Positions 1 through 3,270 of a stretch of 3,307 bases of DNA are shown piece after piece. The stretch lies in the NCBI GenBank assembly GCA_000004985.1, contig GG739228.1; one strand, given 5' to 3'. The number at the start of each line of letters is the position of its first letter. Position 1 is the first letter of the stretch. The notes under the pieces are model-generated. The model had not been told where the DNA came from and did no database searches. It was given only the letters and a program-made list of their open reading frames with translations. Source of the stretch: Naegleria gruberi (taxonomy: Eukaryota). The position numbers and the translations under genes were made by a program.

Positions 1-18
1 AAGAATTCGAAAATGAAG

Positions 19-258
19 CAATTTAATGAGCTCACTTCGACATCCATGTATTGTGAGCTGTTTTGGAGTTTCTCTGACAACCAATGGAAAATATATGATT
101 GTAGAATATTTGGAAAATGGAAGTCTAGAAAAGGCAATTTATAATTCAAAGATGGGAAGAACAATTTTGAGATTTGAAACCAAGTTGAAAATATTAACTG
201 ATGTTGCCAAAGGATTAGTTTATTTACATTCAATCAAACCTCATAGAATTATTCATAG
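19..258 (+). CDS. Protein kinase (TKL-like Ser/Thr kinase), internal exon covering subdomains IV-VIb (LRHPCIV, MIVEYLENGSL, LKILTDVAKGLVYLH, IIH-R split codon); 5' boundary approximate, gene 5' end outside window
   Basis: The open frame translates to ..NLMSSLRHPCIVSCFGVSLTTNGKYMIVEYLENGSLEKAIYNSK..LVYLHSIKPHRIIH, matching kinase subdomains IV-VIb. An in-frame TGA at 14-16 and an AG at 17-18 imply that an intron acceptor precedes this exon. The GTATGT donor sits at 259, leaving the exon in phase 2 (ca|t ag). Confidence 0.85.
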
Positions 259-303
259 GTATGTTTACTAGTTTTATTGGAATAGATATTAATTATGGAA
301 TAG

Positions 304-433
304 AGATTTGAAACCAGGAAATTTATTACTCGATAAGAATATGAATGCAAAAGTTGGGGATTTTGGATTGAGCAAAATTGTTTCGAATAATTCTGCAACA
401 ATGACAGCAAATGTAGGAACTTTACTTTACATG
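304..433 (+). CDS. Protein kinase exon: catalytic loop and activation segment ([44 protein letters not shown])
   Basis: Intron 259-303 (45 nt, GTATGT...AATAG) joins 'ag'+'a' to give Arg of HRDLKPGN. HRDLKPGN and DFG motifs are in frame. The exon ends in phase 0 at ATG (431-433), directly followed by GTAAGT at 434. Confidence 0.85.
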
Positions 434-479
434 GTAAGTCGATAATTTCACAAATTGAATTAAAGTGTTATCAATTTAG

Positions 480-485
480 GCGCCA
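480..485 (+). CDS. 6-nt micro-exon GCGCCA encoding Ala-Pro of the kinase 'APE' motif
   Basis: The exon is flanked by acceptor TTTAG (478-479) and donor GTAAGT (486-491). Without it the conserved Y-M-A-P-E-L-L motif is lost. Reading through from 480 gives APVSNFE..* and a stop. A single intron 434-536 would delete the AP. Confidence 0.7.
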
Positions 486-536
486 GTAAGTAATTTCGAA
501 ATTCAATTCATTAAAATTTCGAATATTTTACAATAG

Positions 537-944
537 GAATTACTTTCGAATGATCACAAAGGTCAAAGTACAAAAGTGGATATTTATTCATTTGGAATTA
601 TTATGTGGGAAATTTTATTCGAAGAATCACCATTTTCAAATGAAATTGATGGTTTCACTAATGTTTTCCAAATATTGAAGAAAGTTACAAAAGGTCATCG
701 ACCACCCTTACTATTCGAAACTAGTGCTTTATTGGAGGGAGATAAAAACCAGAAAGTTGATGAATGGATTGATCATAACTTCACAAAGAAACAAATCGAA
801 ACTATTGGAAAGGAAAATATTTCTAAATTATATGAATCGTATATAGAAATTATGGAACAGTGTTGGAATCATGACGCATCTAAAAGACCTGAATTTATTG
901 AAATTACAGATCAATTAGAAACCTTGCAATCGAACTTTGCTTAA
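537..944 (+). CDS. Protein kinase terminal exon: subdomains VIII(E)-XI (ELLSNDHKGQSTKVDIYSFGIIMWEIL ... KGHRPPL ... CWNHDASKRPEFIEI) ending at TAA 942-944
   Basis: Intron 486-536 (51 nt, GTAAGT...CAATAG). The exon is in frame with the supplied ORF 576..944. DIYSFG (subdomain IX), G-RPP (X) and CW..D..RP.F.EI (XI) are present. Confidence 0.85.
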   Translation, partial: ELLSNDHKGQSTKVDIYSFGIIMWEILFEESPFSNEIDGFTNVFQILKKVTKGHRPPLLFETSALLEGDKNQKVDEWIDHNFTKKQIETIGKENISKLYESYIEIMEQCWNHDASKRPEFIEITDQLETLQSNFA

Positions 945-1001
945 TTTCCTTTATCCAATCTTTTTTAGGAATTACTAACTTTCTGGAATGTTTTCCAAGT
1001 T

Positions 1002-1007
1002 TTTATT
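1002..1007 (-). promoter_or_regulatory. AATAAA polyadenylation signal for the minus-strand vWA gene
   Basis: Plus TTTATT reads AATAAA on minus, 16 nt downstream of the TAA stop. Confidence 0.5.
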
Positions 1008-1018
1008 TCTTTCAAAGG

Positions 1019-1024
1019 TTTATT
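1019..1024 (-). promoter_or_regulatory. AATAAA hexamer overlapping the TAA stop codon of the vWA gene
   Basis: The minus strand reads gaaaTAATAAAcc. The hexamer overlaps stop codon 1023-1025. Confidence 0.4.
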
Positions 1025-1262
1025 ATTTCTTGTTGATGTCACTAAATTCATAGATTCCATTTCCATATTGTGCCATTTCTTGCATGTTAGGTGCAGAACC
1101 TGACCCAATTCCAGTAAAATGGAAGTTGGTGTCTGGATGTGCATCTCTAATAGATTTAAAGGCATCAACAGAGCTGATATCCTGAATATGACCATCACAC
1201 ATAATCAAAATATTTTCAATCTTTGGAAATTTTCTAAAAGTTTGGTTTAGGGTTTGGTGAGG
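1023..1262 (-). CDS. Second half of the same vWA domain (PHQTLNQTFRKFPKIENILIMCDGH ... HFTGIGSGSAPNMQEMAQYGNGIYEF) ending at TAA 1023-1025
   Basis: It is in the same reading frame as the 1446-2264 ORF: the two in-frame TGAs at 1443-1445 and 1263-1265 are 180 nt apart. ILIMCDG corresponds to the vWA 'llTDG' strand and GIGSGS to the 'GiG' strand. Spacing from the MIDAS Asp fits the vWA domain only if 1263-1445 is removed. Confidence 0.75.
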   Translation of the reverse strand, partial: PHQTLNQTFRKFPKIENILIMCDGHIQDISSVDAFKSIRDAHPDTNFHFTGIGSGSAPNMQEMAQYGNGIYEFSDINKK

Positions 1263-1393
1263 TCACCAAGAATGGAACATTTGCAGAGTTTGCAGTTTTT
1301 AAGGAGAAGGAATTGGTTAGAAAACCTGATTGCCTAGATTTTGATCAAGCTTCGATAATGCCTGCTATTGGAATGGCTATTGTGGAAATGTGT
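1253..1393 (+). pseudogene. Fragment of a medium-chain dehydrogenase/reductase (quinone oxidoreductase / zeta-crystallin-like) gene, antisense to and embedded in the vWA gene
   Basis: The plus-frame translation FGEVTKNGTFAEFAVFKEKELVRKPDCLDFDQASIMPAIGMAIVEM matches the MDR signature G-G-x-AEY-x-V...(K/I)P-x-x-L-x-F-x-(E/Q)-AA-x-P...TAY. Compare the human CRYZ region [37 protein letters not shown]. The open frame runs 1238-1486, but homology decays after VEM and the rest of the MDR fold is absent from the window. Confidence 0.55.
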
Positions 1394-1445
1394 CGATCAC
1401 ATGATTGGATTTTACCAATTATTGAAAGAGAGGCAGATAGAATCA
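1263..1445 (-). other. 183-nt segment interrupting the vWA ORF: non-coding on the host strand (7 stops in 61 codons), length divisible by 3, bounded by in-frame TGAs; a possible insertion, non-canonical intron or pseudogenising lesion
   Basis: Removing plus 1263-1445 joins ..GNTLL to PHQTLNQTF..ILIMCDG in frame, giving vWA-consistent spacing. There is no GT...AG at these boundaries, and no phase-compatible canonical donor/acceptor pair that keeps the GNT loop. Confidence 0.55.
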
Positions 1446-2264
1446 AAGCAAAGTATTACCCAATAATGGAACTGACCACACATTAAGAAATTGGTTTAGA
1501 GCATCCAAATCAGTAGGTTCAATTGTGTCTCTGTGTTTAAACCACTCAGTTGTAGATCCCCATAAGGCAATGGAAATTTTTAGATCTCCAGTAATAAACG
1601 CCTTGGATTGAACAAAATTATTAAAACAATCAATTAAAGTTTTGAAAGGAGATCCTTTCATTGATCCGGAAGCATCACCCAGAATAACAATCTGGCCCTC
1701 TTCAATGATAGATGATCCAGCAAGTTTTGAATTCTTACTGGTTGTCTTGAGAGAGGTATTGATTTTCAAAGCATCTGCTCTAGTGGTCACTTGAGCTGGT
1801 TCAATAATCTTTGAATTCACCTCGATACCAAAAGAAGGTATGTTGATATCCACAAAACCAGGAGGAAGAACTTGCTTGAATCTTCCATTCATATCTGTCT
1901 TGCACTCAAAGTGAGTAAAGTGAGTGTCTCTTTCGTTTTTTCTTAATTTGCAAATAGCTTGTTCATTGCTAACAGCTTCATCATGGTTTTTAAATTCAAA
2001 ACTAATATCTACCACTTTAAGATCATAGAAATCAGGGGCAACACTTCCATTACGTTCCACCTTGAACTTGAACTCTGTTAGAGGAATACTTAATTTTGCC
2101 TCACCCATTTCAATTCTTGGCTTGCAACTATAATCACCAGGATTCAACTGCTTGGTGTCAATAAAGGCAGTACAAGTTTTGACATGAGTGGTGTTTTTGA
2201 ATACCTCCAACTTGATATCTTCAGAGTATGGATTAACATAAATGGTATTTTCCTTTGGAAACAT
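1446..2264 (-). CDS. vWA-domain protein: N-terminal ~190-aa region of unassigned fold plus first half of a von Willebrand factor type A domain (MIDAS DASGSM ... GNT loop). The frame is closed by TGA at 1443-1445, which lies at the edge of the interrupting segment
   Basis: An 822-nt ORF (supplied 1443..2264). QIVILGDASGSM matches the vWA DxSGS MIDAS start, and GNT sits about 73 residues after that Asp, where the vWA GGT motif is expected. ATG at 2264 has poor context (gtccATGt), so the true start may be upstream. Confidence 0.8.
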
Positions 2265-2331
2265 GGACCTACTACTTACTTTTCAGCATCTTTGTTCTTC
2301 TTGTCAATGTCTTCTACGTTGTTCTTGACAG

Positions 2332-2616
2332 CTACAGTTGCAAAGACATCATCAAGTTGGAGATCTTTGAGCTGTTAGAACCCTCTCCACTTTTAAACTT
2401 TTCCTGCATAGCTTTAATGCTACCTCTTCTTTTTGACAATTCAGTTACTTCCTCTCTTTCCTTGGTAATTGTACTGCTTGAAGTAGAAGCAATCAAAGGA
2501 ACTTGAAGTAATGATGGCTTGACTGGAGTCCTCAAATACTTTTGATCAGTTTCATTGCTTGGCTTTTTCTCAAATTGTTGGGAAAGATTTTTAACACTGT
2601 TTGTTGTTGGTATCAT
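2332..2616 (-). CDS. Possible 5' exon (or upstream ORF) of the vWA gene: Ser/Thr/Lys/Glu-rich low-complexity 94-aa ORF starting at ATG 2616 behind an A-rich leader
   Basis: ATG has good context (aaaaaaaatcaactccaacATGa). The ORF has the same orientation and lies immediately upstream of the 2264 ORF, but in a different frame, and no strong donor/acceptor pair links them. Candidate introns of 61-124 nt exist, with weak GTAGCT/GTCTTT/GTTCTA-type donors. Confidence 0.35.
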   Translation of the reverse strand: MIPTTNSVKNLSQQFEKKPSNETDQKYLRTPVKPSLLQVPLIASTSSSTITKEREEVTELSKRRGSIKAMQEKFKSGEGSNSSKISNLMMSLQL

Positions 2617-3270
2617 GTTGGAGTTGATTTTTTTTGATTATTATTTTTCCATGACAGCAAGTCAAATGAAAGAATTTCAAATTATTATTGTAAACTGATT
2701 TTTTAGCAAATTTGCACCAACCTACCCTGTTTGATGGAAAAGAGCAACCAATCCCCAAACAGAAATAAATCAAACATGTCTGTGTTGACCTTATTTCATA
2801 TTTTTCTGGCACTAAAGGCAAGAAATAGTACTCTAGTACAGATAATATTTCTTTACAATCTTCCACTACAGTTTTCATGTCAAATCACCTGATAAATTTA
2901 TCAACCATGTTCCATTCCGACCAAATATTGTAAATTGTAATCCAACATCTCAGTTCTTGAGTGAGTAAAGGAGTTGTTCGTGAAAATTAATGATGGAAAG
3001 CAAGAGAAGGAATGCTTATATATTTCTATTGCGTATGCACCACGAATATTCTTGTTGTTATTGGGTGATATTTATTATTAATCTCCATTGAATATTATTC
3101 TTGATGATGAATTTAAAAATCCAAGGAAGGCTTCCGAACATGTTTTTTCTTGCTTGTTGCGCTTTCATTTTCCGTTAAAAATTTGCAAATAAAAAATATT
3201 TCAAAATTAAAATCACTGATGATGAAGCCATCAATTATTTCAAATAATACTTGTATCTATTATATGTAGT
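2617..3270. promoter_or_regulatory. Non-coding 5' flank / putative promoter region of the minus-strand gene, possibly a bidirectional intergenic region
   Basis: There is no sustained ORF on any frame. The A-rich leader is immediately upstream of ATG 2616. A 14-nt perfect palindrome TGATAAATTTATCA lies at 2890-2903. An AT-rich tract 3160-3270 precedes ATGATGATG at 3274. Confidence 0.35.

What the first reader, a model, noticed from the sequence alone, without database searches (positions are those of the whole stretch)
434..536. 6-nt micro-exon (GCGCCA) encoding the Ala-Pro of the kinase APE motif between 46-nt and 51-nt introns
The activation-segment motif reads ...GTLLYM | AP | ELLSNDHK. The AP is supplied by a 6-nt exon at 480-485, bounded by acceptor TTTAG and donor GTAAGT. 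Exons this small are rare and hard for gene predictors to find. A predictor would most likely call one 103-nt intron and produce a kinase lacking the AP of APE. Recognition of such an exon by the spliceosome, with introns of only about 50 nt on each side, is mechanistically interesting.
Basis: seen in the sequence. Interest (0 to 1): 0.55.

Follow-up and report, generated by a model that had tools for sequence, protein, structure and literature searches.

The report
Six-base exon in Naegleria kinase gene
A receptor-like protein kinase gene of the amoeba Naegleria gruberi almost certainly carries a real 6-base exon supplying the Ala-Pro of the conserved kinase "APE" motif; this is a tidy, unannotated example of a known phenomenon (micro-exons), not a new kind of biology.

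Summary
The window is a 3307-bp N. gruberi scaffold. The gene is a CTR1/TAK1-like (TKL) receptor-like kinase with no annotated protein found in the database searched.

Evidence for the micro-exon:
- Of 26 open GT-AG splice models, the micro-exon model scores best against a family HMM, 309.6 bits against 293.8 for skipping.
- Every complete close homologue has two residues ([AS][PN]) at this position.
- The chance of such a site in 103 nt of intron-like sequence is about 1e-5.
- An independent contig that is about 98% identical (L005) keeps the arrangement inside an intact 618-codon reading frame, with dN/dS about 0.11.
- The intron directly after AP is old. Four relatives, including an annotated N. 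lovaniensis gene, have it at the same phase-0 position.

The intron before AP appears only in the window and L005, so the micro-exon probably arose by gain of a second intron 6 nt upstream.

Caveats: there is no transcript evidence, and the window copy has a 1-nt frameshift at 22-24. Micro-exons of 1-15 nt are well documented elsewhere, so interest is modest.

The parts
1..258 (+). Kinase exon, cut by the scaffold end. It encodes ...EFENEAI / LMSSLRHPCIVSCFGVSL...LHSIKPHRIIH(R). A 1-nt frameshift lies in the T-run at 22-24.
   Evidence: Translation. Pfam Pkinase/PK_Tyr_Ser-Thr hits. L005 has one extra T here and an intact frame.
259..303 (+). Intron 0, 45 nt, GTATGT...AATAG, phase 2. It splits the Arg codon of HRD.
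   Evidence: Sequence. Joining the exons gives IIHRDLKPGN. Two substitutions relative to L005.
304..433 (+). Exon encoding (R)[43 protein letters not shown]: catalytic loop, DFG and activation loop.
   Evidence: ungapped alignment to CTR1.
434..479 (+). Intron 1, 46 nt, GTAAGT...TTTAG, phase 0. Seen only in this gene and L005. Inferred to be the younger intron.
   Evidence: 3 substitutions relative to L005, splice sites intact; absent in L001, L089, L091, L007.
480..485 (+). 6-nt micro-exon GCGCCA = Ala-Pro of the APE motif.
   Evidence: Identical in L005.
486..536 (+). Intron 2, 51 nt, GTAAGT...AATAG, phase 0, between the P and E of APE. An old, conserved intron position.
   Evidence: An intron at the same position and phase, starting GTAAGT, occurs in L001 (46 nt), L089 (36 nt), L091 (41 nt) and N. 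lovaniensis L007 (68 nt). Identical in L005.
537..944 (+). Terminal exon ELLSNDHKGQSTKVDIYSFG...QLETLQSNFA plus the TAA stop at 942-944.
   Evidence: 97% identical to the L005 ORF P0124.

Best explanation
Positions 480-485 are a genuine internal coding micro-exon of a Naegleria gruberi receptor-like TKL protein kinase. The gene has an ectodomain, one transmembrane helix and a CTR1/TAK1-like kinase domain. The pre-mRNA carries two short GT-AG introns only 6 nt apart, and removing both inserts GCGCCA (Ala-Pro) to complete the activation-segment APE motif.

The downstream intron sits between the P and E of APE in phase 0. It is an old intron position shared by relatives in several heteroloboseans. 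The upstream intron is seen only in this gene and its ~98%-identical copy L005 (the closest paralogue could not be checked), so the micro-exon was most likely created when a second intron was gained 6 nt upstream of the old one.

Inferred mechanism (not shown): each roughly 50-nt intron is recognised as a unit (intron definition) through its perfect GTAAGT donor. A 6-nt exon cannot hold a 3' splice-site complex and a U1 snRNP at the same time, so the two introns are probably removed one after the other. The first splice fuses the micro-exon to a normal-sized exon.
For: Anatomy and reading frames:
- No unspliced reading is open. Of 26 open GT-AG models in 401-600, the micro-exon model scores 309.6 bits against a family HMM built from 18 homologues without this gene. 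The best alternative, skipping, scores 293.8.

Homologues:
- All complete close homologues have [AS][PN]E here with no gap.
- The solved CTR1 structure aligns GTPEWMAPEVL to GTLLYMAPELL without a gap.

Chance: the expectation is about 1e-5.

Independent copy: L005, an ENA metagenome contig at about 98% identity, keeps both introns and the micro-exon within an intact 618-codon frame. Coding differences are 9 synonymous to 4 non-synonymous, giving dN/dS about 0.11 with binomial p = 1.6e-4.

Old intron: an intron immediately after AP/PP/SN, starting GTAAGT, is present in L001, L089, L091 and in the annotated N. lovaniensis gene P0010/L007.

Literature: micro-exons of 15 nt or less, strong flanking donors (GTRAGT) and competition or sequential removal of flanking introns are documented (PMC8831610, PMC8378409, PMC10250204).
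Against: - No cDNA, EST or RNA-seq evidence was available, so inclusion is inferred.
- The window copy has a 1-nt frameshift at 22-24. It lies on an odd 3.3-kb scaffold whose neighbouring VWA gene is interrupted by a 189-nt insertion, so this particular copy could be a dead allele or a poor assembly.
- Conservation of the micro-exon is shown only in a copy 2% diverged, which is weak. The micro-exon plus intron 2 show 0 differences in 57 nt, but only about 2-3 would be expected.
- The closest N. lovaniensis relative lacks intron 1.
- The DNA of the 77%-identical N. gruberi paralogue could not be obtained.
- Skipping would preserve the frame, so some or all transcripts could lack AP.
- Splicing order and intron definition are inference from other organisms.
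Confidence: 0.82

Rival explanations
1. A single 103-nt intron (434-536) is removed. GCGCCA is never included and the kinase lacks the AP of APE, making it an inactive or atypical kinase.
For: Skipping preserves the frame and gives an open model scoring 293.8 bits. The outer donor and acceptor are strong. Steric interference is known to disfavour very small exons (PMC8378409).
Against: - It loses 15.8 bits relative to inclusion.
- None of the listed homologues that reach this position lacks these two residues.
- A GC-rich in-frame Ala-Pro hexamer flanked by TTTAG and a perfect GTAAGT inside an AT-rich intron has a chance expectation of about 1e-5.
- The internal GTAAGT sits exactly at the conserved ancestral intron position of the family.
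- A 103-nt intron would be longer than the 36-68 nt introns at this site in relatives.
Confidence: 0.06
2. The exon is an alternatively used cassette. Both AP-plus and AP-minus mRNAs are made, and the AP-minus form is a catalytically impaired receptor isoform.
For: The 6-nt length preserves the frame. Exon skipping and intron retention occur in N. gruberi transcriptomes (PMC6142364).
Against: No data bear on isoforms. Both donors are perfect GTAAGT, which is typical of constitutive inclusion. No regulatory element or significant RNA structure was found (z = -1.7).
Confidence: 0.08
3. The window copy is a pseudogene or a mis-assembled scaffold, so the micro-exon is only a relic or artefact here.
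For: - There is a 1-nt frameshift at 22-24.
- There is a 189-nt foreign, MDR/ADH-like insertion in the neighbouring VWA gene, and a roughly 550-nt segment absent from L005.
- The kinase has no annotated protein in the database searched.
Against: - The micro-exon region is reproduced exactly in an independent assembly from another sample, where the whole gene is open.
- dN/dS of about 0.11 between the two copies indicates selection on the coding sequence.
- The frameshift is a homopolymer-length difference that could be a sequencing error.
- This rival concerns the status of this copy, not whether the micro-exon is real.
Confidence: 0.25

Closest known systems
Plant coding micro-exons of 15 nt or less (Yu et al. 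2022, Nat Commun, PMC8831610)
   Same: These are internal coding exons of a few nucleotides flanked by GT-AG introns with strong GTRAGT donors. They encode parts of conserved domains; Pkinase and PK_Tyr_Ser-Thr are the top domains for micro-exons in Chlamydomonas. They are frequently missed by annotation, and flanking introns are thought to be removed one after the other.
   Different: The organism here is a heterolobosean amoeba with roughly 50-nt introns. There is no RNA-seq support yet. Conservation is shown only in one near-identical copy, not across a clade.
Extreme micro-exons: the 1-nt exon of Arabidopsis APC11/VPS55 (PMC8831610) and the 1-nt exon of Fusarium CYP621A (PMC12940212)
   Same: They show that spliceosomes working by intron definition can join exons far smaller than 6 nt, and that homology to a conserved protein motif is how such exons are found.
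   Different: Those cases are validated by RT-PCR or RNA-seq and conserved across many species. The present exon is larger, in frame, and supported by comparison only.
Animal neuronal micro-exons (3-27 nt, SRRM4/PRP-40 dependent; PMC8378409, PMC10250204)
   Same: The steric problem of a 3' splice site and a 5' splice site a few nucleotides apart is the same. So are the reliance on strong 5' splice sites and on ordered, intron-defined removal.
   Different: The animal exons are regulated cassettes flanked by long introns and need tissue-specific factors. Here the introns are about 50 nt, nothing suggests regulation, and SRRM4-type regulators are an animal innovation (my own knowledge).
TKL-group kinases CTR1 and TAK1 (PDB 3ppz, 2eva)
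   Same: These are the best solved-structure matches (E 3e-39 and 1e-37). HRDLKPxN, DFG and APE all align without gaps.
   Different: The Naegleria protein is a single-pass receptor-like kinase with an uncharacterised ectodomain that has no Pfam hit. It also has a family-specific insert in the C-lobe.

Membership tests
Spliceosomal coding micro-exon (15 nt or less) | Internal exon bounded upstream by an intron ending in AG and downstream by an intron starting with GT, each intron complete with its own donor and acceptor | tested here: met
   434 GTAAGT...TTTAG 479 | GCGCCA | 486 GTAAGT...AATAG 536.
Spliceosomal coding micro-exon (15 nt or less) | Inclusion restores the reading frame or conserved residues better than any alternative splice model | tested here: met
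   Best of 26 open GT-AG models: 309.6 bits against 293.8 for skipping. Every listed homologue that reaches this position has two residues here.
Spliceosomal coding micro-exon (15 nt or less) | Presence of the exon in mature mRNA (junction reads or cDNA) | not testable with these tools
   No transcript collection is available. N. gruberi RNA-seq exists as PRJEB23822.
Spliceosomal coding micro-exon (15 nt or less) | Conservation of the micro-exon and both flanking introns in orthologues | tested here: inconclusive
   Kept in L005, which is only about 2% diverged. Intron 2 is conserved in four relatives, but intron 1 is absent from them. DNA of the 77% paralogue is unavailable.
Eukaryotic protein kinase, TKL group | Pkinase/PK_Tyr_Ser-Thr domain with HRDLKPxN, DFG and APE motifs, closest to TKL kinases | tested here: met
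   Pfam Pkinase 1e-42 and PK_Tyr_Ser-Thr 4e-39; 1.5e-52 on the full L005 protein. Best PDB hits are CTR1 and TAK1. APE is present only if the micro-exon is included.
Recursive (ratchet) splice site | Acceptor AG directly abutting a regenerated donor (AG|GTAAGT), meaning a zero-length exon that leaves nothing in the mRNA | tested here: not met
   Six in-frame coding bases separate the AG (478-479) from GTAAGT (486-491).
Introner / transposon-derived or duplicated intron (as the origin of intron 1) | Sequence similarity of the intron to other introns or repeated copies | tested here: inconclusive
   The intron 1 against intron 2 alignment is no better than shuffles (p about 0.1). No other copy was found in the window or in 91 fetched loci. 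The N. gruberi genome itself could not be searched.

The most novel reading that the evidence does not exclude
The 6-nt exon is a regulated cassette. Skipping preserves the frame and would produce a receptor kinase lacking the Ala-Pro that positions the APE glutamate, a built-in inactive or dominant-negative isoform. This would be a micro-exon activity switch in a free-living protist outside animals, plants and fungi. It would have been created by a recent intron gain 6 nt from an old intron.
Probability: 0.08. Interest if true: 0.55.

Novelty: new member of a known kind. Interest (0 to 1): 0.3.

Why it matters
It adds a well-supported micro-exon from Heterolobosea, a lineage in which two full-text searches here found no paper describing one. 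It sits in the most conserved motif of the kinase fold.

It shows how the N. gruberi annotation may fail around such sites. No protein model for this gene was found, and the paralogue's model stops four codons before the site.

It gives a clean example of a micro-exon created by adding a new intron next to an old one.

In practice, homology-guided micro-exon search would improve Naegleria kinome annotation, including that of the pathogen N. fowleri. It does not open or settle any long-standing question.

Tried and rejected
1. DNA of the N. gruberi paralogue P0006 and of P0121 is not on record, so the micro-exon could not be checked in the closest paralogue.
2. The metagenome scan with the family alignment returned only relatives at 40% identity or less, apparently generic Ser/Thr kinases of no use here, because the patterns HRDLKP[GA]N and DFGLSK are too general.
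4. Origin of intron 1 by duplication of intron 2: the alignment score is 23 against 18 ± 3.5 for shuffles, p about 0.1. Rejected as unsupported.
5. Repeated or introner-like copies of either intron: none in the window or in any fetched locus.
6. RNA structure bringing the splice sites together: the MFE z-score is -1.73 and the only feature is a small palindromic hairpin in intron 2. Not significant.
7. A search with the terminal exon alone found only the L005 ORF and no N. gruberi model.
8. Recursive splicing was rejected because six coding bases lie between the AG and the GT.
9. Literature searches found no paper on micro-exons in Naegleria.

Full report
**What the window is**

The window is 32% G+C. 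The minus-strand VWA_3 gene product P0121, "predicted protein [Naegleria gruberi]", lies on a contig of exactly 3307 bp, and its three exon segments map without mismatch to the window. The window is therefore a small unplaced N. gruberi scaffold.

The plus strand from 1 to 944 encodes the C-terminal two thirds of a protein kinase domain. Pfam gives Pkinase 1e-42 and PK_Tyr_Ser-Thr 4e-39. The best solved-structure matches are CTR1 and TAK1, which places it in the TKL group.

**Check of the observation**

- Exon ...GGAACTTTACTTTACATG ends at 433.
- Intron 1 is 434-479 (46 nt, GTAAGT...TTTAG).
- GCGCCA occupies 480-485.
- Intron 2 is 486-536 (51 nt, GTAAGT...AATAG).
- The next exon starts with GAATTACTT at 537.

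The spliced product reads ...[47 protein letters not shown]... Retaining intron 1 stops after VSR. Retaining intron 2 stops after APVSNFEIQFIKISNILQ.

A third intron (259-303, GTATGT...AATAG, 45 nt, phase 2) splits the Arg codon of HRD. The stop codon is at 942-944.

With the composition of these introns (C 7%, G 14%), an AG+GCN+CCN+GT site is expected 1.4e-5 times in a 103-nt intron, and 1.6e-7 times with a GTRAGT donor. The arrangement is not a chance feature.

**Is the micro-exon the right gene model?**

I enumerated every GT...AG combination with one or two introns of at least 20 nt between 401 and 600 that leaves the frame open to the stop. There are 26 such models, and no unspliced reading is open.

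Each model was scored against an HMM built from 18 homologues that excludes this gene. The micro-exon model is best at 309.6 bits. Skipping (one 103-nt intron, YM|ELL) is second at 293.8 bits. All others score 291 bits or less and use poor donors or delete conserved residues.

In the alignment of the closest homologues, and in the activation segments of the listed hits that reach this position, two residues ([AS][PN]) always precede the Glu, and none lacks them. CTR1 aligns GTPEWMAPEVL to GTLLYMAPELL without a gap.

**Independent copy**

The VWA protein led to L005, a 7886-bp contig from an ENA metagenome (ERZ929261). It matches window 1-1256 at 97.9% identity on its reverse strand.

L005 has the same two introns and the same GCGCCA. 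Intron 1 shows three substitutions, none in a splice site. The micro-exon and intron 2 show none.

L005 extends the gene upstream into one long open frame with an ectodomain that has no Pfam hit, a transmembrane helix (LAAILSSVILGIILITIILAALIVIA), a juxtamembrane region and the full kinase domain. With the three introns removed this gives a 618-residue receptor-like kinase, still cut at its N-terminus by the contig end.

Between the two copies there are 9 synonymous and 4 non-synonymous differences in 265 codons. That gives pS 0.057, pN 0.006 and a ratio of 0.11, with binomial p = 1.6e-4. The introns differ at 5 of 142 positions. The gene has therefore been under purifying selection, which requires both introns to be removed so that the frame stays open.

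**Caveat on the window copy**

At 21-24 the window reads ATTT-AATG where L005 reads ATTTTAATG. The window therefore shifts frame between EFENEAI and LMSSLRHP. This is a homopolymer-length difference. It may be a sequencing error on a low-coverage scaffold or a real inactivating mutation of this allele.

The scaffold has other oddities:
- A 189-nt insertion (1257-1445) sits inside the VWA gene.
- About 550 nt (2265-2817) has no counterpart in L005.

None of this affects 434-536, which the independent assembly reproduces.

**Age of the two introns**

Among the hits, three metagenomic ORFs read ...AP/PP followed by VS..., the signature of reading into GTAAGT. Their DNA, together with an annotated N. 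lovaniensis gene, shows an intron exactly after the AP-equivalent codons, in phase 0, always starting GTAAGT:

| Locus | Sequence around the intron | Intron length |
|---|---|---|
| L001 | FYIAP \| intron \| EILED | 46 nt |
| L089 | YYMPP \| intron \| EVILE | 36 nt |
| L091 | YYMAP \| intron \| EVILG | 41 nt |
| L007 / P0010 | FYMSN \| intron \| EMISG | 68 nt |

Other relatives (P0001-P0003 and P0005; loci L002-L004 and L008) have no intron at either site.

None has an intron before AP. Intron 2 is therefore an old family position. Intron 1 is seen only in this gene and in L005. The most economical reading is gain of intron 1 six nucleotides upstream of the old intron.

I found no evidence on how it was gained. 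It is not significantly similar to intron 2 (p about 0.1). It has no other copy in any sequence I hold.

**Annotation status**

Searching the spliced protein, and separately the terminal exon, found no N. gruberi protein derived from this gene. The best hit to the spliced protein was 51% identical over the full length, and the terminal exon matched only the L005 ORF.

The nearest N. gruberi paralogue, XP_002678082 (77% identical), is a partial model that ends at ...NVGT, four codons before the site. This fits the idea that the region troubles gene finders, but it does not prove it. The paralogue's DNA was not retrievable.

**Mechanism**

*Shown.* Two complete short introns with perfect GTAAGT donors lie 6 nt apart, and the coding requirement is met only if both are removed.

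*Inferred from other systems.* Exons this small cannot be recognised by exon definition, and a 3' splice-site complex and a U1 snRNP cannot sit 6 nt apart. Micro-exons therefore depend on intron definition and strong flanking signals, and the flanking introns are removed one after the other (PMC8378409, PMC10250204, PMC8831610). With introns of about 50 nt, intron definition is the expected default.

Once either intron is removed, the micro-exon is part of a normal-sized exon and the second intron is ordinary. Which goes first is unknown. No significant RNA structure spans the region (z = -1.73).

From established kinase structural biology (my own knowledge), the APE Glu anchors the activation segment to the C-lobe. 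The PKA Glu208-Arg280 pair is the classic example. Deleting the two residues before it would be expected to impair the kinase.

**Comparison with what is known**

Coding micro-exons of 1-15 nt are documented and experimentally validated in plants: 2,398 in ten species, mostly unannotated, with kinase domains among the top hosts in Chlamydomonas (PMC8831610). They are also known in fungi, including a 1-nt exon in Fusarium CYP621A (PMC12940212) and a regulated micro-exon in Trichoderma (PMC11121469), and in animals.

The present case meets the sequence-level criteria of that class. It lacks transcript proof and deep conservation. It is not a recursive splice site, because six coding bases remain between the AG and the GT.

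I found no paper on micro-exons in Naegleria. This is a new member of a known kind.

**Verdict**

Novelty is low to moderate and interest is 0.3. The most interesting residual possibility is a frame-preserving on/off cassette, at a probability of about 0.08.

Noticed in passing
window 21-24: There is a 1-nt frameshift in the kinase. The window has ATTT-AATG where the 98%-identical contig L005 has ATTTTAATG. The window reading frame therefore breaks between EFENEAI and LMSSLRHP. This could be a sequencing error in a homopolymer or a dead allele.
   Followed up: partly
window 1257-1445: A 189-nt segment is absent from L005 and interrupts the minus-strand VWA_3 gene, whose annotated product P0121 stops just inside it. 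On the plus strand it is one open frame, EVTKNGTFAEFAVFKEKELVRKPDCLDFDQASIMPAIG... This frame weakly resembles zinc-type alcohol dehydrogenases/MDR (PDB 2eih, E 0.04; no Pfam hit). It looks like a gene fragment inserted or mis-assembled into the VWA gene.
   Followed up: partly
window 2265-2817: About 550 nt, including the annotated first exon of P0121, has no counterpart in L005, where roughly 80 nt of different sequence lie instead. This is a structural difference between the two copies or a chimeric scaffold.
   Followed up: no
window 2127-2284 and 2330-2427 (minus strand): The annotated N. gruberi model P0121 removes as an intron a stretch (MFPKENTIYVNPYSED...QLNPGDYS) that is open in the window and largely retained in the L005 ORF P0122. 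A likely frameshift also lies between ...SGEGSNS and LKDLQLDDVFATVAVKNN. The VWA gene model is probably wrong in its 5' half.
   Followed up: partly
L005 reverse strand, upstream of the window's position 1: The full gene is a single-pass receptor-like kinase. Its ectodomain of about 225 residues has no Pfam match and is followed by a transmembrane helix. The extracellular part is uncharacterised.
   Followed up: partly
L089 490-526; L091 367-408: Relatives carry very short introns of 36 and 41 nt at the APE position. The 36-nt intron is a multiple of three without a stop codon, so a prokaryote-style gene caller read straight through it (P0015: ...YYMPPVSSSNFFVSHYQEVILE...).
   Followed up: yes
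window 492-503: Intron 2 contains a perfect 12-nt palindrome, AATTTCGAAATT, and a second TTTCGAA at 516-522. These form the only stable hairpin in the region. The overall fold is not significant.
   Followed up: yes
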